From an uncultured Spirochaetota bacterium (GTDB taxonomy: Bacteria; Spirochaetota; Spirochaetia; SZUA-6; Fen-1364): a stretch of 64,000 nucleotides of DNA. The stretch is taken from NCBI GenBank assembly GCA_963820525.1, contig CAWGAA010000001.1, positions 160,001-224,000 on the forward strand, read 5' to 3'. Shown piece by piece: positions 20,542 to 56,135 of this stretch; position 1 is the stretch's first letter, and the number at the start of each line of letters is the position of its first letter. The notes beneath the pieces are model-generated. The model saw only the letters and a program-made list of their open reading frames with translations. It was not told where the DNA came from and ran no database searches. The translations under genes and the position numbers were made by a program.

Positions 20542-21024
20542 GTGGCGCTGCTTCTCGCGGAGCTCTTCACGCCGGGGCGCATCAAGACCGACCTCGAGGC
20601 GGAGGACAAGCCGGAGGTTTTCGAGGAGCTCGTGGACCTGCTGGTGACACAGTACATGCTCGATTGCAGAGACGAGATCCTCGAAGCCATCAGGGTCCGC
20701 GAGGAGAAGATGTCCACCGGAATCAAGAGGGGCATCGCGATACCGCACGCGAAAACCTCCCTCACAAAGGGTGTCATCGGCGTCCTGGGAATCTCTCGCA
20801 GGGGCATCGATTACGAGTCCCTGGACGGCGAGCCGGTGCACCTGCTCTTTCTCATGGTGAGCTCGGAGGATGATGCCGGCCAGCATCTCGCTGCGCTCAA
20901 GAAGATCGCCCTGCTCGTGGAGAATCCCGACTTCTACTCCGAGATGCTCGCCGCGAGCGATCCTGAGAAAGTGAATAGGATCATCCGCAAGCACGAGGAG
21001 ATCCTCGATTCCCAGGAATCCTGA
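20542..21024 (+). CDS. PTS EIIA (Fru/Ntr type) domain protein
   Basis: REEKMSTGIKRGIAIPHA phospho-His motif; no EIIB/EIIC nearby. Confidence 0.88.
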   Translation: MALLLAELFTPGRIKTDLEAEDKPEVFEELVDLLVTQYMLDCRDEILEAIRVREEKMSTGIKRGIAIPHAKTSLTKGVIGVLGISRRGIDYESLDGEPVHLLFLMVSSEDDAGQHLAALKKIALLVENPDFYSEMLAASDPEKVNRIIRKHEEILDSQES

Positions 21025-49570: not shown

Positions 49571-51601
49571 ATGGCAGGTATTGACCTTCCCAAAAGCCCG
49601 AATGTGTTCCACCCGGAGAAACCGAGTGCAGTCGGGTCCCGCAACTCCCTCGCCCAGGAGTTCAGGGATCAGCAGGCTGAGGTCGACCTCCTTCTCAGCG
49701 AAGAAGTAGATAAAGTACTGAATCATCTCACCTCGAAACTACCAAAGGAAGTCGCCGAAAAACTCGACGTCATGGGTGGGTTGAAGGAGAAGCTGTACAA
49801 CTACTTCAACCAGAACTACCAGAACATGTTCAACCGCTACATCGTCACCACGGAAGACGAAATGGTGAAGAAGGTGCGGAACTTCATCGACAAGGAAGAG
49901 ATGAAGGCCCTCGCCCGCTACACTCCCAAGGAGATCGCGGCCCTCCTGGATCAGGTGGGCGGCATCGACAAGTTCAACACGGGTGAAATCGAGAAATCGA
50001 TTGTCAACATGTTCGGCCACTTGCAGGGCCACATCCAGCGCGGCGTCAACGATCTGGAGAACCTCACCAACAGCCTCCTCCGCCAGAAGACCGACGTCGG
50101 CGCGTTCATCAGGGGCGAGAACGCGTACTCCATCGTGAAGTGCTCCTTCAAGGACAACGCGATAAAGCCCAAGACCGTCACTGACGTGAAGCTCTCGGTC
50201 AACATCCTCGACTCCGAGCTCATCAGCCCCATCTTCCACTATCAGGTCACCGTGGAGTTCCTGATCAAGGACCTCATCTCCAAGAACATCATGGACCTGA
50301 TCGACAAGGAGATCGAGAAGCTCAAGGACCAGCTGGTGGACGAGGGCAAGGAAGAGCTCTCCGACGGCGAGATCCTCTTCGAAAAGATGGAGAGGGTGGA
50401 GAAGTTCACCTCGGACGACAAGGACGACCCCAAGTCCAAGAGGTACAGCTTCTTCGCCAAGAGCCTGATGGACAAGATCGAGGGTCTGCGCGCCGAGATC
50501 GATCCCGAGGAATACGATCCGGTCAACGTTCGCGAGAACCTGAAAAAGATCATCGACCTTGAGAACATCAGGAACAGGGGCTTCAACACGGCCATCAACT
50601 CCATCACCTCCATCCTCGACACCTCCAAGATGGGCTACCAGCACGTGGAGAACCTCAAGAACGCCCGCGAGCTGGTGCTGAGGGAGTATGAGGACACGGA
50701 TGCCAGCCAGGTGCCCGATGAGAGGTACTCCATCCGGCTGAAGTATTACGACCAGGCCCAGCTGCTGGAGGAGCGCAAGTCCTACGACGTTCAGGCCAAG
50801 AGCTTCGAGGTCGAGGTCCAGCACCTGTGGGACGTGCTCGAGATGGTCTATGAAGACTCCAAGTTCATGAAGGGCGTGGTCGATTTCAGCGACCTGGCCA
50901 GGAGAATGAAGGGAAAGATCAAGAGGAGGATCAAGGCCAAGACGGGAGATCCCCTCTACGAAGACATCGAGAAGTCGTGGGACGAGATCATCTTCGTCCG
51001 GCCGGGAGACACCGAGGTCGAGCGGATGAACCGCACCTACATCCCCGAAAAGGACAAGATCAAGAGACGGATCATCCTCATGAGGGACAAGCTGCAGAAG
51101 CTGTACGGCTACCGCTACCCGATCCAGCGCCGGGTCATGGAAGATCGGCTTACCTATCTCGAGAAGGATTTCCTGAAGTTCGAATACATGATCAACCCGT
51201 ACCACATCCAGCCCGGCCTTCTGCTCGACGTGGACATCACCTCGATCAAGAGGAAGAAGGCGACCCTTGACGGAATGTCCAACGTGCTCAACGAGTTCCT
51301 CTATGGAGTGTCGAAGGGATTCCAGGATGCGGCTTTCGCTTCCTTCTCCCGCAGGCGCTCCACGGTCAGGGCGGACATTGCCCAGTCCTTTGCCGGCACT
51401 TCCCCCGGGCAGGAGCAGCCAACCGAGGGCGCGCCCTCCAAGGGCTCCGAGTACCTCGACATGATCAATGTCCCCGCGGCGGCGGAGTCAAAGGCACCCG
51501 CCCGCACTCCGGGCGTCGTGGACGTGTCCAAGCGAGGACGGAGACCCGCCAGGAGGGGCAGGCCCCGGAGGGGCGGTGACGCGGGCTTGAGAGAAATCTA
51601 A
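49571..51601 (+). CDS. cfpA: Cytoplasmic filament protein A
   Basis: Recognisable N-terminus [26 protein letters not shown]; 676 aa, coiled-coil rich; C-terminal [10 protein letters not shown]. Confidence 0.92.
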
Positions 51602-51619
51602 GTCCTCTCCATGAGATAG

Positions 51620-51657
51620 ATGGTGACCTTCTCACGGAGGTCACCATTTTCATTTTT
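51620..51657 (+). terminator. Rho-independent terminator after cfpA
   Basis: ATGGTGACCTTC-tcac-GGAGGTCACCAT followed by TTTCATTTTT. Confidence 0.75.
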
Positions 51658-51692
51658 CAGCGTTTTTTGAGCAGAGATAGAGGGAAGAACAC

Positions 51693-52727
51693 ATGCAGGA
51701 ACAACTCCATCTGTTTGACGGGCTCAGCACACGCGATGGGTTCAACAAGTCTCTCAAGCACTTCAAGTTCATCGCGAATGTCATTGGCGAGTTCGAGAGA
51801 AACCGCAATCTTGCGGAAGTCCTGAGTGACAGCCTGGCGGAAAAGTCGATCGAGCCTGACCAGGTTCTTCCCACGATCTGCGCCATCCTCGTGGACAAAT
51901 ACCACTACGCGTACCGCTCGTACAACCTCGAGGAGAACTTCGAGGATTTCGACGCGGTAGCGGCGGAGGCGAGCAAGTGGAAGGCCGTGGACCTCGTCGT
52001 GGCCTACTTCCACCCCGAGCTCGGCGTCGTGGCGGTCAATCCCAAGAACCCTGCCCACTGGAGCGTGGTCCAGAGCCTGAAGAAGAACGAGCTGGTCACC
52101 GTTTTTGCCGGCGCGTTCCAGAAAACGACCACAAGCGATACGTACATGCAGGCGATCGAGCTCCTCCTCTCCATGATCCAGGGGGGGAAGGTCCGCACCC
52201 CCGCGGCGCTCACCAAGGGCCGCTTCGTGCAGAGGGCACCCTCCAAGGCGCCGGCTCCCGCGGCCGCACCCAGGCGCGTGGGCCGTCCAAAGTCAGCCAG
52301 AGCGGCTTCGGCTGCTCCCGCCGGCGCGGCACCTGCCGCGGCCTCGGTGGCAGCGGCCGCGGCCGCCGCTCCCGCAGCCGCTCCATCCGGCGCGCGCAAG
52401 AAGATGACTCCCATGTACGGGATCGTCGTGACGAACGAGCTGTTCCACAACGGGAACGTGGAGGCCTGGAAAAAGATCATCCAGAGCTATACGACGAAAT
52501 ACCCCGGATTGGAGGTGTACGTCTTCTACGAGGGCGAGCGAATCCACGACATCAACACCCTCTTCAAGTGGGGGAAGGTGAAGCACGGGAGCGCCATCAT
52601 GATCTCCGTGGCGGGAGACGATATCAGGGACGTCGCCAAGCTCAACCGTTACCTGAAACAGGGAGCGAGCCATATGTTCGAGGCTTTCCTGAAGGCTCCC
52701 GTCAACGCGATTCTCAATCTCTTTTGA
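51693..52727 (+). CDS. Hypothetical protein: N-terminal domain, Ala/Pro linker and C-terminal HPr-like domain
   Basis: C-terminal IVVTNELFH...VKHGSAIMISVAGDD...L matches the HPr pattern by eye; long Ala/Pro linker. Confidence 0.6.
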   Translation: MQEQLHLFDGLSTRDGFNKSLKHFKFIANVIGEFERNRNLAEVLSDSLAEKSIEPDQVLPTICAILVDKYHYAYRSYNLEENFEDFDAVAAEASKWKAVDLVVAYFHPELGVVAVNPKNPAHWSVVQSLKKNELVTVFAGAFQKTTTSDTYMQAIELLLSMIQGGKVRTPAALTKGRFVQRAPSKAPAPAAAPRRVGRPKSARAASAAPAGAAPAAASVAAAAAAAPAAAPSGARKKMTPMYGIVVTNELFHNGNVEAWKKIIQSYTTKYPGLEVYVFYEGERIHDINTLFKWGKVKHGSAIMISVAGDDIRDVAKLNRYLKQGASHMFEAFLKAPVNAILNLF

Positions 52728-52830
52728 GCGGCGTTTGCCTTTGGCAGGCCGCTGATTTAGCGCGGCGTACGGAACAGGTAAGCCGCCGCTGATACAAGAG
52801 CGGCGTTTGCCTCCGGCAAGCCGCCGCTGA
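52726..52830. repeat. Three tandem REP-like imperfect palindromes
   Basis: GAGCGGCGTTTGCCT at 52726 and 52798; AAGCCGCCGCTGA twice; unit 3 folds as AGCGGCG.TTTGCC-tcc-GGCAAG.CGCCGCT. Confidence 0.75.
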
Positions 52831-52850
52831 GGTGCAAGGGAAGGAAAGGC

Positions 52851-55492
52851 ATGAAGAAGAACATCTATTTCTTCGCCCAGGGCGAAGCGAACACCAAGCC
52901 CCAGGTCCTCGAGAGGATCGGCATCCGCGGGCGTCTGGCCATGGAGCTTGCCGACCTCGATCTTCCCATACTCCCCGGTTTCATCATCGACGCGGACGTC
53001 GCCTCCCACCTCAAGGACTACAAGATCCGGCCGGCCCTCGAGCCGTGGTTCGACAAGCTGGCCAAGCTCACCGGCAAGAGCTTCGGTGACGCGGACAATC
53101 CCATGCTGGTGAAGATCGTCATCAGCCCCAACCTCGTGATCGCCACCTATCCGACCCTCCACAACTACGGCCTTACCGAAAAGACCCTCAACGGGTTCAA
53201 CGCCTTCGTCGGGGAAAACTTCGGCCTGCACGAGCTGCAGTTTCTCACCCGGGGAAACCTCGAGATCGAGCTCGCTATAGCCGAGATCGAGGGGCGAGAG
53301 AAGGAGGCCAAGGCCCTGAAGCAGTCGATCAAGCAGCTGGATGCCGACATGGATTCCGAGATGGACGCGAAACGAAGGAGGGAGTGCGTCACCAAGTACA
53401 TGGCAATGCTTCCCGAAGGCTTCTTCGCGGACTCGTTCTCCCAGCTGGAGATCGCGCTCAACAGGATCAGCCATCTTCTTTCCATAAACGACCAGAACCA
53501 GGAAGACACGGCGCTCCTCATCCAGCCCATGGTTTACGGAAACTATGGAAAGGATTCCGCATACGGGCAGTTCTACACCCGAAACATCGTCACCGGAGAC
53601 AAGCAGATTCAAGGCGAGTTCTTCCAGAGCAAGTTCAACGCCATCGGCGCCTCCGGGTCAGAGATCGAAAAGATCGCGAAGAACTACTTCAACGATCTGG
53701 AACGGATAGCCCACAGGGTGGAGGACCATTTCAAGGAGATCCGCTCCATCCGCTTCACCGTCGAAAACAAGAGGCTGTGGCTCATCGATCAGCGCTCCGT
53801 GATGACCAAGTCCACGCAGTCGGACATCCGCACCCTTCTGGACCTGCACTCCAGAAAGATCGTGAACGACGAGTACGTCATCAACCAGATAAAGCCGGGA
53901 CAGCTGAACGAGATCCTGCACCCCATCATCAACCTCTCCTCGGTGCAGAAAATGAAGAACCTCTCCGGCGGCATCGCGGGTGCCCCGGGGGCGGCCATCG
54001 GACGGGTGTTCTTCAGCACGGCCGGGCTTCTGGACGCATTCAAGAGCGCTCAAAAACTGGGCCAGGACACCAAGCTCATCCTCTGCCTGCCCGCAAGCTT
54101 CGCGGAGGACGTCAAGGCGATCGAGGTCGCCACGGGGTCCTCTCCACGGAAGGCGGCTATTCGGCCCACGCCTCCGTCGTTGCGCGCCAGTACGGGAAGG
54201 TGTCGTTTGTGAAGCCGGACATGAAGATCCGCGGCAACCGCGCTACCGTGGGGGACACCGTGATCAAGGAGGGTGATTACCTCACCCTGAACGTCCCCTT
54301 CTACGGAATTCCCTCCGTCTACCTCGGCAAGGCCGAGCTCATCGAGCCGGATCCCGAGGAGTCGGGGATGCTCGACTTCCTGAAGATCGTCCAGAAGTTC
54401 GTGACGCGCTTCCACGTGAGGACCAATGCCGACACTCCCCGGGACGCGGCTCTCGCGCGGACATTCGGGGCCCGCGGCATCGGGCTGTGCCGCACCGAGC
54501 ACATGTTCTTCGCCGAAAAACGGATCAACGTTTTCCGCGAGATGGTGATCTCCGGCTCCCTGGAGGAGAGGAAAAAGGCCCTGGCCAAGCTGCAGCCCAT
54601 GCAGCAGGCGGACTTCTACAAGCTGTTCAAGATCATGGAGGGAAACCCCGTCATCATACGGCTGCTCGACGCCCCGCTCCACGAGTTCCTGCCCCATAAC
54701 GAAACGGAGATGGAGCAGTTCATGAGCTACCTCAACGCGGGCAAGAAGGCCGACGCCCGGCTGCCCGAGAGGGAGGTGCGGGCGCGCTGCGATGCCCTGC
54801 ACGAGTTCAACCCGATGCTGGGCCACAGGGGATGCCGAATCGCCGTCTCGTATCCCGAGATCTACGAAATGCAGGTCCGCGGTATCTTCGAGGCCGTCTA
54901 TACGCTGAAAAAGGAAGGGATCAAGGTCCAGCCCGAGATCATGATCCCGATCATCATGAACGAAAACGAGCTGAAGCTCATCATCTTCGGCAAAAAGATC
55001 GAGGGCAAGCACATCCGCGGCCTCGTGGACGTCGAGAAGGACGTTCGGGACAGCTTCAAGGCCAGGCCAGCGGAGTACATGATCGGGACCATGGTCGAGC
55101 TTCCCGCCGCGGCGCTGGGAGCCGACCACCTGTCGCGATACGCCCAGTTCTTCTCCTTCGGGACCAACGATCTCACCCAGACCACGATCGGGCTCTCTCG
55201 CGACGACTTCAACACCTTCATGCCGGACTACACGCAGTTCGACCTTCTCGAGGGAAACCCCTTCCAGCTGCTCAATCCCCAGGTGAAAGAGCTGATCCAG
55301 ATGGCGGTCAAGCGCGGCCGGATGTCCCGGCCGGACCTCGAGGTGGGTCTCTGCGGCGAGCATGGGGCCATCCCGGAGAACGTGCGTTTCTGCATCGACG
55401 CGGGGCTCGATTACGTTTCCTGTTCCCCGTACTCCGTGCCCATCGCGAACCTGGCCATCGCCCAGATCATGATCGAGAAAGCGGCGAAATAG
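52851..55492 (+). CDS. ppdK: Pyruvate phosphate dikinase homologue (divergent N-terminal domain); frameshift in G4 at 54134-54137
   Basis: QPMVYGN, GGYSAHASVVARQYG, GIGLCRTEHMF, IRLLD, NPMLGHRGCR, FSFGTNDLTQ, GLCGEHG. Adding one G joins ORFs 52851..54212 and 53384..55492. Confidence 0.88.
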
Positions 55493-55516: not shown

Positions 55517-55548
55517 ATAAAAAAGGGGGCGAAAGCCCCCTTTTTTAT
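55517..55548. terminator. Bidirectional rho-independent terminator
   Basis: ATAAAAAAGGGGGC-GAAA-GCCCCCTTTTTTAT between convergent genes. Confidence 0.92.
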
Positions 55549-55583: not shown

Positions 55584-56135
55584 CTACTTGGCCCAGATGC
55601 TGAAGCGATTCAGGCACTTCTCGACGAGGCCGGCAACCTTGTCGGCGTCGTCCTTGGGAACATTCGCTTCCTTGTTGAGAGTGGTCTCGAAAAAGCTCTT
55701 GATGGTTTCCATGACGTCGGCAAGGTTGTAGAAGAGGAAAGCGAAGTTGATTCCCGACGGCTTGATGATCGTGAAGGATCCATAGGTGAGAATGGGCTCC
55801 TTGCTCACCATCACCTTGGTCTGGTTCTTCGAGGTGAGGATCTCCAGCTCCGAGAAGCGGTGGGGGATCTGCTCCTTTGACTGCCTGCGGAACGGCTCAA
55901 GGTGCTTCTGGGCATAATTGGGAGGCTCGCTGAGGACGAAGAGCTTGTTGCCGTCGGTCTGGAAGGTGAGGCCCTCCTCGGAAAGGTAGATGCTCTTCAC
56001 CCCATTGTACGCAACGACTTCATACTTCGAATATGCCGAGTTCTCGTCGAGGAAAGAGGAGATGATGTATCCCCCCTCCTTGGGCAGCTTGTTCTCGCCG
56101 TAGGCCTGAAATAAATCGAGGGCTTTCGTTGCCAT
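55584..56135 (-). CDS. Hypothetical protein
   Basis: AGGAGG RBS, TTGAAT...TGaTATAAT promoter and coding-like codon usage; no recognisable motif. Confidence 0.8.
   Translation of the reverse strand: MATKALDLFQAYGENKLPKEGGYIISSFLDENSAYSKYEVVAYNGVKSIYLSEEGLTFQTDGNKLFVLSEPPNYAQKHLEPFRRQSKEQIPHRFSELEILTSKNQTKVMVSKEPILTYGSFTIIKPSGINFAFLFYNLADVMETIKSFFETTLNKEANVPKDDADKVAGLVEKCLNRFSIWAK

What the first reader, a model, noticed from the sequence alone, without database searches (positions are those of the whole stretch)
49571..55492. Candidate PEP-driven phosphorelay next to the cytoplasmic filament gene: cfpA / HPr-like protein / ATP-dead PPDK
Seen: cfpA is followed on the same strand by a protein ending in an HPr-like domain, then by a PPDK homologue. 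The homologue keeps its PEP/pyruvate site and phospho-His, but its ATP-grasp residues are substituted. Established: PPDK and PTS Enzyme I share the PEP-binding barrel and His domain, and EI passes phosphate from PEP via His to HPr. Inference: this PPDK may act as a dedicated EI-like kinase for the adjacent HPr-like protein, linking the PEP/pyruvate ratio to CfpA filaments or to the orphan EIIA at 20542. Caveat: a terminator at 51620-51657 separates cfpA from the other two genes, so the link to CfpA rests on proximity only.
Basis: partly seen in the sequence, partly recalled or inferred. Interest (0 to 1): 0.85.

Follow-up and report, generated by a model that had tools for sequence, protein, structure and literature searches.

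The report
Filament-linked dead-ATP PPDK and double-HPr protein
Next to the spirochaete cytoplasmic-filament gene cfpA lie a protein built from two copies of the HPr phosphocarrier fold and a copy of pyruvate phosphate dikinase that keeps its PEP site and catalytic histidine but has lost its ATP-handling residues, which hints at an undescribed PEP-driven signalling or docking module tied to the filament.

Summary
cfpA (49571-51601) is followed by a TP_0747-family protein (51693-52727) and a PPDK paralogue (52851-55492). The paralogue keeps His455 and all seven PEP/pyruvate-site residues checked in 70 of 70 orthologues. Its ATP-grasp residues are replaced and a 16-residue loop is deleted. The middle protein contains two HPr-like folds, not one: residues 72-165 (Z 10.1) and 238-325 (Z 7.7). 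Neither shows sequence similarity to HPr. The frame break at 54134-54137 is one missing G. Contigs from two public runs carry the fifth G, so the gene is probably intact. Gene order held in all 80 related loci where the contig allowed. In 301 sampled Spirochaetota genomes, 104 of the 109 with any of the three genes have all three. A 1.1-Mb relative, apparently Treponema pallidum, has only this paralogue, with no canonical PPDK and no pyruvate kinase. Phosphotransfer to the neighbour is untested, and the link to the EIIA at 20542 has no support. Earlier notes of this scan describe the same trio in other genomes. I found nothing in print on the altered ATP site.

The parts
49571..51601 (+). cfpA, cytoplasmic filament protein A (676 aa)
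   Evidence: NF040882 scores 1184.7 bits against a cut-off of 500. ORF.
51618..51659 (+). Terminator-like hairpin (14 pairs) plus T-rich tail between cfpA and the next gene
   Evidence: A hairpin with a T-rich tail was found in this spacer by a crude rule in 50 of 77 spacers (76 related loci plus the window itself), with different stem sequences.
51693..52727 (+). TP_0747-family protein, 'p344' (344 aa): helical N-terminus, HPr-like fold 1, Ala/Pro-rich linker, HPr-like fold 2
   Evidence: ORF. Its relatives carry the precomputed family PF27497, which the Atlas names TP_0747_N. Alignment A1.
51906..52187 (+). HPr-like fold 1 (residues 72-165); no His at the place of HPr His15
   Evidence: Model pLDDT 87.5. 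The top five VIA rows are HPr or NPr, at Z 10.1, 9.4, 9.0, 8.4 and 7.7; the next, unrelated row is at 6.4. The first 28 Foldseek rows printed are all HPr, best E 9e-3.
52404..52667 (+). HPr-like fold 2 (residues 238-325), the most conserved part of the protein; invariant His252 at 52446-52448
   Evidence: Model pLDDT 85.6. Best HPr matches are Z 6.9 and 7.7. Mean column identity is 85% over 80 sequences.
52851..55492 (+). PPDK paralogue (TP0746 / TDE0844 type, about 880 aa), read here in two frames
   Evidence: Against TIGR01828 the N piece scores 155.5 bits and the C piece 489.1 bits, below the cut-off of 843.45. PDB alignments. In orthologues the two pieces abut in one frame.
54134..54137 (+). 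Run of four G where five are needed: the frame break
   Evidence: Sequence. A contig of run X1 (0 other letters over 53600-54517) and one of run X4 both have an extra G behind 54133.
54167..54169 (+). Codon of the catalytic histidine (His455 in 1DIK numbering)
   Evidence: His in 70 of 70 orthologues.
54389..55468 (+). PEP/pyruvate-binding barrel
   Evidence: PF02896 at E 1.5e-71. R561, R617, D620, E745, N768, D769 and C831 are kept in 70 of 70 orthologues.
55519..55545 (.). Palindromic hairpin flanked by an A run and a T run, between the PPDK paralogue and the convergent gene at 55584-56135

Best explanation
The region is the spirochaete cytoplasmic-filament module: cfpA, then a two-gene unit behind a terminator-like hairpin.

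The last gene descends from pyruvate phosphate dikinase but can very probably no longer run the ATP/AMP-PPi half-reaction. It keeps the PEP/pyruvate half-site and the swivelling catalytic His. The step it can still do is the one Enzyme I does: PEP + enzyme-His gives pyruvate + enzyme-His~P.

Its constant neighbour is built from two HPr folds. I think it is the dedicated partner of that phospho-His domain. Fold 2 (His252) may accept the phosphoryl group, or the protein may dock onto and read out the enzyme's phosphorylation state. In either case the pair would couple the PEP:pyruvate state of the cell to something that happens at CfpA filaments.

Shown here: gene order, co-occurrence, loss of the nucleotide-site residues, retention of the PEP site and His, and the two HPr-like folds (predicted models). 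Inferred: autophosphorylation from PEP, any transfer or binding to the neighbour, and any physical link to CfpA.
For: Enzyme.
- Residues shared by the maize, Flaveria and C. symbiosum PPDK chains and by this genome's own canonical PPDK are replaced in the paralogue.
- Counts over 70 orthologues: K22>R 70, R92>V 69, M103>Y 70, D104>P 70, R135>F 69, Q277>F 70, E323>R 68, Q335>D/E 68. A 16-residue deletion removes the QGEDVVAG loop.
- H455, R561, R617, D620, E745, N768, D769 and C831 are kept in 70 of 70.
- TIGR01828 scores are 608-692 bits for paralogues and 1225-1408 for canonical copies, against a cut-off of 843.
- Lys22 of PPDK is cited as a contact of the ATP gamma-phosphate (PMC4844700, passages read).

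Partner.
- HPr is the best fold match for both domains.
- The alignment ranges (model residue 4-5 opposite HPr residue 1) put His252 opposite HPr residue 14-15, if that stretch aligns without gaps. This is my inference; no residue-level alignment was printed.
- The motif TNELFH(N/Y)GNVEAW, with the His, survives in a clade whose CfpA is only 39-41% identical to the window's.

Linkage.
- The PPDK paralogue lies just downstream in 80 of 80 related loci. cfpA lies upstream in 76 of 80; the other four are cut by a contig end.
- In 301 sampled genomes of the phylum, p344 is in 107, cfpA in 108 and the paralogue in 106. All three are in 104 of the 109 genomes that have any.
- The three genes are kept even where they lie on separate contigs, in one family of 1.3-1.9 Mb genomes.
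- T. denticola TDE0842, TDE0843 and TDE0844 are listed together as repressed by the same partner species (PMC3914990, Table 5 passage).

Precedent. In rifampin phosphotransferase the same kind of swivel His domain docks on a domain with an HPr-like subdomain (PMC4844700, passages).
Against: - Neither HPr-like domain resembles HPr in sequence (hhalign probability 0.2). There is no PF00381 hit.
- Fold 2 scores Z below 8, a range the search tool says can reflect a common arrangement.
- HPr's Arg17 has no counterpart, and fold 1 has no His at the active-site place.
- Stand-alone relatives of fold 2 lack the His. They sit between a purH-like gene and a UbiE-type methyltransferase gene, not beside a PEP enzyme. 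The fold family is therefore not tied to phosphotransfer as such.
- The replacement residues in the ATP site differ between the main clade and the distant clade (K22>R against Q, R92>V against T/A/S, R337 kept against S). That looks like loss of a site, not a newly built conserved acceptor site.
- A 1.1-Mb relative has neither pyruvate kinase nor a canonical PPDK. There the paralogue may still have to make pyruvate at a useful rate.
- A conserved terminator-like hairpin separates cfpA from the pair.
- Except for Lys22, the roles of the ATP-site residues are recalled from the C. symbiosum mutagenesis literature, which I could not open.
Confidence: 0.4

Rival explanations
1. The paralogue is PEP-dependent and ATP-dead, but p344 is not phosphorylated. 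The two HPr folds are pseudo-carriers that only dock, as adaptor or regulator. They might tether the enzyme to CfpA filaments or gate its PEP-to-pyruvate turnover, while the phosphoryl group goes to water or to a small molecule.
For: Fold 1 has no His at the active-site place. There is no HPr sequence signature and no Arg17 equivalent. Stand-alone relatives of fold 2 lack the His. Fold 2 is conserved across the whole domain, at 85% mean column identity, as expected of a multi-contact docking surface. The ATP-site replacements differ between clades.
Against: His252 and its motif are kept in the deeply divergent trio clade but not in the stand-alone paralogues, which points to a trio-specific role for that loop. 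The invariant catalytic His and PEP site imply that a phospho-enzyme is formed and needs an outlet.
Confidence: 0.25
2. The gene is still a working pyruvate phosphate dikinase, or a close variant that uses a nucleotide, despite the substitutions. Its place beside cfpA is only a conserved gene order.
For: It is annotated and discussed as Ppdk in T. pallidum (PMC10013896, passages). The 1.1-Mb relative G099 has no other PPDK and no pyruvate kinase. The three-domain layout, Q240 and usually R337 are kept. The N-terminal domain is conserved among orthologues, at 46-79% identity to the window.
Against: Residues shared by all solved PPDKs and by the genome's own canonical copy are replaced in 68-70 of 70 orthologues, and a loop is deleted. 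All paralogues fall below the curated family cut-off. Most genomes checked keep a canonical PPDK as well (G000, G015, G106, G295). In the distant clade even R337 and K22 are Ser and Gln.
Confidence: 0.15
3. Both proteins are mainly structural parts of the filament ribbon, and the enzyme chemistry is vestigial.
For: Near-perfect co-occurrence with cfpA. A tomography paper whose title reports novel bridging and anchoring components of the treponemal filaments is cited in PMC3398590 (reference list seen only).
Against: A vestigial active site would not stay invariant. The catalytic His and seven PEP-site residues are kept in 70 of 70 orthologues and in the distant clade.
Confidence: 0.1

Closest known systems
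Pyruvate, phosphate dikinase (EC 2.7.9.1; TIGR01828; 1DIK/1KBL, 1VBG, 5JVJ, 2X0S)
   Same: Three-domain layout, the catalytic His on the swivel domain, and a complete PEP/pyruvate site. The C-terminal half matches at E 1e-110 to 1e-114.
   Different: The nucleotide-site residues are replaced and a loop is deleted. The score is below the family cut-off. The Thr that sits before the His in canonical PPDK is Ser or Ala. The gene always lies beside a TP_0747-family gene.
PTS Enzyme I with HPr (TIGR01417 / PF00381)
   Same: The logic: a PEP-binding barrel and a swivel His domain next to a small protein of HPr fold. The barrel matches EI at E 7e-21.
   Different: There is no EI-type N-terminal HPr-binding domain; the N-terminus derives from an ATP-grasp. 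The partner has two HPr folds with no HPr sequence signature. The genome has a separate canonical EI and HPr.
Treponemal cfpA locus: T. pallidum TP0748-TP0747-TP0746 and T. denticola TDE0842-TDE0843-TDE0844
   Same: The same three genes in the same order. The T. denticola gene table is in PMC3914990. The Pfam family is named TP_0747_N. G099 and G015 show the trio.
   Different: None in kind; this is a free-living relative. In print the last gene is treated as an ordinary Ppdk and the middle one as hypothetical.
Rifampin phosphotransferase (PMC4844700)
   Same: A member of the PEP-synthase/PPDK lineage whose swivel His domain hands phosphate to a non-canonical acceptor site that includes an HPr-like subdomain (passages).
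   Different: That enzyme keeps a working ATP-grasp and lacks the PEP barrel. Here it is the reverse.

Membership tests
CfpA (NCBIfam NF040882) | Score above the curated cut-off over the full model | tested here: met
   1184.7 bits against a cut-off of 500, model positions 1-604 of 605.
Pyruvate, phosphate dikinase (TIGR01828 equivalog) | Score above the curated cut-off of 843.45 bits | tested here: not met
   155.5 + 489.1 bits for the two pieces. Intact orthologues score 608-692 bits and canonical copies 1225-1408.
Pyruvate, phosphate dikinase | ATP-grasp nucleotide and Mg site residues (K22, R92, M103, R135, D321, E323, Q335; 1DIK numbering; roles recalled, except K22 from PMC4844700) | tested here: not met
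   All are replaced in the window. All except the variable D321 position are replaced in 68-70 of 70 orthologues; D321 is mostly Ser (52 of 70). The own-genome canonical copy keeps every one.
Pyruvate, phosphate dikinase | Catalytic His455 and PEP/pyruvate-site residues (R561, R617, D620, E745, N768, D769, C831) | tested here: met
   Kept in 70 of 70 orthologues.
PTS Enzyme I (TIGR01417) | Score above 341.7 bits and an EI-type N-terminal HPr-binding domain | tested here: not met
   109.7 bits for the C piece in the protein scan, and 89.5 and 18.8 bits for the two matches in the genome scan. The N-terminus aligns with PPDK positions 1-437. No EI N-terminal family appears in the Pfam scan.
HPr (Pfam PF00381) | Sequence match to the family | tested here: not met
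   No hit in the Pfam scan of p344. The whole-genome scan finds only the canonical HPr. hhalign probability is 0.2 for both domains.
HPr (fold) | Open-faced beta-alpha-beta-beta-alpha-beta-alpha sandwich covering the whole of HPr | tested here: met
   Fold 1: Z 10.1, rmsd 2.1, 80 of 85 residues. Fold 2: Z 7.7, rmsd 2.3, 79 of 88 residues. Both are predicted models.
HPr (active site) | His15 at the start of helix 1 with Arg17 | tested here: inconclusive
   Fold 1 has no His there (sequence NFEDFD). In fold 2 the alignment ranges place His252 opposite HPr residue 14-15, but no residue-level alignment was available. The motif is H-N-G-N, without Arg.
TP_0747_N (Pfam PF27497) | Match to the family model | not testable with these tools
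   The family is absent from the local Pfam copy. It is precomputed on all 120 relatives listed, including the window's own cluster, and is named by the Atlas.

The most novel reading that the evidence does not exclude
The CfpA filament carries its own PEP-fuelled phosphorelay. The TP0746-type enzyme charges its His from PEP and phosphorylates His252 of the TP0747-type double-HPr protein. That protein in turn controls a filament-associated process, such as division or chromosome partitioning, according to the PEP:pyruvate ratio. As a corollary, Treponema pallidum has no true pyruvate phosphate dikinase, and the last step of its glycolysis needs re-drawing.
Probability: 0.25. Interest if true: 0.85.

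Novelty: new variant of a known kind. Interest (0 to 1): 0.7.

Why it matters
CfpA filaments have been known for decades, but their function and their partners have not been worked out. This gives two concrete, conserved candidate partners and a testable biochemical idea.

It also questions a textbook assignment. The only 'Ppdk' of the syphilis spirochaete appears to be this ATP-site-deficient paralogue, in a genome that also lacks pyruvate kinase. That bears on how the organism is thought to make ATP and pyruvate.

More generally, it would be an example of a central metabolic enzyme turned into an Enzyme-I-like signalling device.

Tried and rejected
- Complex prediction of an intact orthologue of the PPDK paralogue (L019, 880 aa) with the C-terminal HPr-like domain of the same locus: no verdict. 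The score was 0.00 against a mark of 0.32, and the controls were not run. This says nothing either way. The N-terminal HPr-like domain, full-length p344 and CfpA were not tried, because only one job was allowed.
- RNA evidence: no RNA holder was listed among the public runs.
- Sequence routes to HPr all gave nothing: the Pfam and NCBIfam scans and hhalign of either domain against the genome's own HPr. A profile search of 1.84 billion representatives with the C-terminal domain gave 129 hits at E<=0.001. None was in HPr's size range as a full match, and none was fused to a PPDK-like protein.
- Stand-alone relatives of the C-terminal domain were followed into metagenome contigs, to see whether they also sit beside PEP enzymes. 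They do not. In the loci checked they are flanked upstream by a purH-like gene (5 of 5) and downstream by a UbiE-type methyltransferase (4 of 5).
- Papers that might describe cfpA transcription or the ATP-site mutagenesis could not be opened.
- Literature searches for TP0746, TP0747, TDE0843 and TDE0844, and for Treponema with PPDK and pyruvate kinase, found no paper that notes the altered ATP site or the HPr folds. Subscription journals are largely outside the library.
- PF27497 could not be scanned locally.
- The scan's notes near this place in this genome: none.
Full report
WHAT IS THERE. Three genes lie on the + strand.
- cfpA runs 49571-51601 and scores 1184.7 bits against NF040882, whose cut-off is 500.
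- A 344-residue protein ('p344') runs 51693-52727.
- A PPDK homologue runs 52851-55492, read in two frames.
- Upstream on the other strand is a VWA-domain membrane protein. Downstream are a convergent 183-residue ORF and a TPR protein.
- A 14-pair hairpin with a T-rich tail follows cfpA at 51618-51649.
- A palindromic terminator-like site at 55519-55545 closes the unit.

THE FRAME BREAK. At 54134-54137 the window has four G. Five are needed to read A-T-G-V-L-S-T-E-G-G-Y-S-A-H. In related loci the two pieces abut in one frame, and 62 loci gave complete ORFs of 878-889 residues. Two public-run contigs carry an extra G behind 54133: one from run X1, with no other difference over 53600-54517, and one from run X4. 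The break is therefore most likely an assembly error in a homopolymer, or a strain variant, and not a dead gene. X1 may be the sample the window came from, so it is not independent.

THE ENZYME. The C-terminal half is an ordinary PPDK half (489 bits to TIGR01828; E 1e-110 to solved PPDKs). The N-terminal half is far off (155 bits). I mapped the window onto 1DIK numbering through the printed alignments.
- Kept: H455, R561, R617, D620, E745, N768, D769, C831.
- Changed or lost: K22, R92, G101, M103, R135, T253, D321, E323 and Q335 are replaced, and E279/D280 are missing.
- In 70 orthologues the pattern is fixed: K22>R 70, R92>V 69, M103>Y 70, D104>P 70, R135>F 69, Q277>F 70, E323>R 68, Q335>D/E 68, and a 16-residue deletion. 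The His and the seven PEP-site residues are kept in 70 of 70.
- The same genome's canonical PPDK (contig 2, 1225 bits) has every canonical residue.
- The catalytic roles of these residues are recalled from the C. symbiosum mutagenesis work, which I could not open. Only Lys22 is backed by a passage I read (PMC4844700).
- Independent of recall, these residues are shared by the maize, Flaveria and Clostridium chains and by the canonical paralogue, and the paralogue falls below the curated cut-off.

THE MIDDLE PROTEIN. It has no local Pfam or NCBIfam hit. Its relatives carry PF27497, which the Atlas names TP_0747_N. It is therefore the family of T. pallidum TP0747.
- Alignment shows an N-terminal domain, an Ala/Pro-rich linker and a 107-residue C-terminal domain that is almost invariant.
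- The C-terminal domain model (pLDDT 85.6) has HPr as its best match in three searches: Foldseek E 0.062; Z 6.9; and Z 7.7 at rmsd 2.3 over 79 of 88 residues. The tool warns that this Z range can mean only a common arrangement.
- The N-terminal model (pLDDT 87.5) was a surprise. After a helical bundle, residues 72-165 match HPr more clearly. The top five rows are HPr or NPr, at Z 10.1 to 7.7, with the next unrelated row at 6.4. The first 28 Foldseek rows printed are all HPr.
- So the protein has two HPr folds. Neither resembles HPr in sequence.
- Fold 1 has acidic residues where His15 would be.
- In fold 2 the alignment ranges put His252 opposite HPr residue 14-15. I could not see a residue-level superposition, and there is no Arg17 equivalent.

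CONSERVATION.
- A genome scan found relatives of p344 in 537 of the 598 pattern matches that were checked, all in spirochaete records among the 80 kept.
- In those 80 loci the PPDK paralogue follows p344 in 80. cfpA precedes it in 76; the other four begin within 330 bases of a contig end.
- In 301 sampled genomes of the phylum, p344 was found in 107, cfpA in 108, and the paralogue's N-terminal half (E<=1e-50) in 106. All three were found in 104 and none in 192.
- Of the five exceptions, three are 80-82% complete genomes. The other two are 93% and 97% complete.
- These genomes are related to one another, so the counts overstate independence.
- In one genus cfpA lies on another contig while p344 and the paralogue stay adjacent. 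In a family of 1.3-1.9 Mb genomes all three lie on separate contigs yet all are kept (same calls).
- A hairpin with a T-rich tail sits after cfpA in 50 of 77 spacers (76 related loci plus the window itself) by a crude rule, with differing stem sequences. Strong termination or attenuation after cfpA therefore looks like a conserved feature.
- T. denticola TDE0842, TDE0843 and TDE0844 are listed together as repressed under the same conditions (PMC3914990, Table 5 passage).

A DISTANT CLADE. Seven metagenome loci (L120-L126) hold a p344-like gene and at least part of its neighbours. Five of them (L120, L122, L123, L125, L126) show the whole trio, with CfpA 39-41% and p344 28-30% identical to the window's.
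- The enzyme's His and PEP site are again intact. The ATP site is changed further (K22>Q, R92>T/A/S, R337>S).
- The C-terminal motif TNELFH-Y-GNVEAW keeps the His.
- Submitters label relatives of this clade 'Deltaproteobacteria', 'Proteobacteria' or 'bacterium'. I did not test that taxonomy.
- Stand-alone relatives of fold 2 (108-129 residues) lack the His and lie in an unrelated context.

THE SYPHILIS SPIROCHAETE. G099 is a 1.1-Mb single-contig genome of the same class. Its gene coordinates agree with those printed for TP0746, so I infer it is T. pallidum or a near relative.
- It has the trio.
- Its only PPDK-family match of any strength is the paralogue, at 608 bits.
- It has no pyruvate kinase match.
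- Its paralogue shows the same substitutions as the others.
- In print the gene is taken to convert PEP, AMP and PPi to pyruvate and ATP (PMC10013896, passages).
- This cuts both ways. Either that assignment is wrong, or the paralogue retains more activity than its sequence suggests.

READING. The anatomy fits an Enzyme-I-like first step (PEP to enzyme-His~P) with the double-HPr protein as partner, working with CfpA. I put 0.4 on that reading, with or without actual transfer to His252. I put 0.25 on docking only, 0.15 on a still-working dikinase and 0.1 on mainly structural roles. The proposed tie to the EIIA at 20542 has no support. That gene is a normal PTS_EIIA_2 protein, and the genome has a canonical EI and HPr.

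NOVELTY. Earlier notes of this scan describe the same trio, the double HPr fold and the ATP-site loss in other genomes. I reached the same points independently before reading them. My literature searches found no paper that describes them.

Noticed in passing
L120-L126 (metagenome loci); e.g. L123:2597-7842: A deeply divergent version of the same module: cfpA-like, p344-like and PPDK-like genes in one order, whole in five of the seven loci. CfpA is only 39-41% identical to the window's. Submitters label relatives of this p344 as Deltaproteobacteria, Proteobacteria or bacterium MAGs, so the module may reach beyond classical spirochaetes.
   Followed up: partly
L102, L104, L105, L115, L118 (metagenome loci): Stand-alone 118-182-residue relatives of the C-terminal HPr-like domain lie just downstream of an AICARFT/IMPCHase-like gene in all five loci. 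A UbiE-type methyltransferase gene follows in four of the five. They keep the EAW...SY...KL.R...LF motifs but not His252.
   Followed up: partly
G099:C1:810752-816533 (L096): This 1.1-Mb genome has the trio, but no canonical PPDK and no pyruvate kinase match. Its annotated Ppdk is the ATP-site-deficient paralogue.
   Followed up: partly
G055, G101, G017, G143, G122, G031, G115, G150, G043: In three families the PPDK paralogue's open frame is 965-972 residues, and the window's N-terminal half matches only from about residue 160-185 onward. The first 270 or so residues there are replaced or much diverged.
   Followed up: no
window 20542-21024 (+): A PTS_EIIA_2 (EIIA-Ntr type) protein at E 4.8e-33. 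The genome also has a canonical EI (contig 2, 561 bits) and a canonical HPr (contig 1) elsewhere.
   Followed up: partly
L022 and L044: In these two related loci the PPDK paralogue matches only in parts and gives no long open frame. These may be further frame errors or masked stretches.
   Followed up: no
window 54451-54524: Contig depth from the wetland runs jumps to hundreds or thousands over the GLCRTEHMFF-coding stretch. Many unrelated organisms' PEP-utilising genes lie on it, so this is a conserved-motif pile-up and not a feature of this genome.
   Followed up: no
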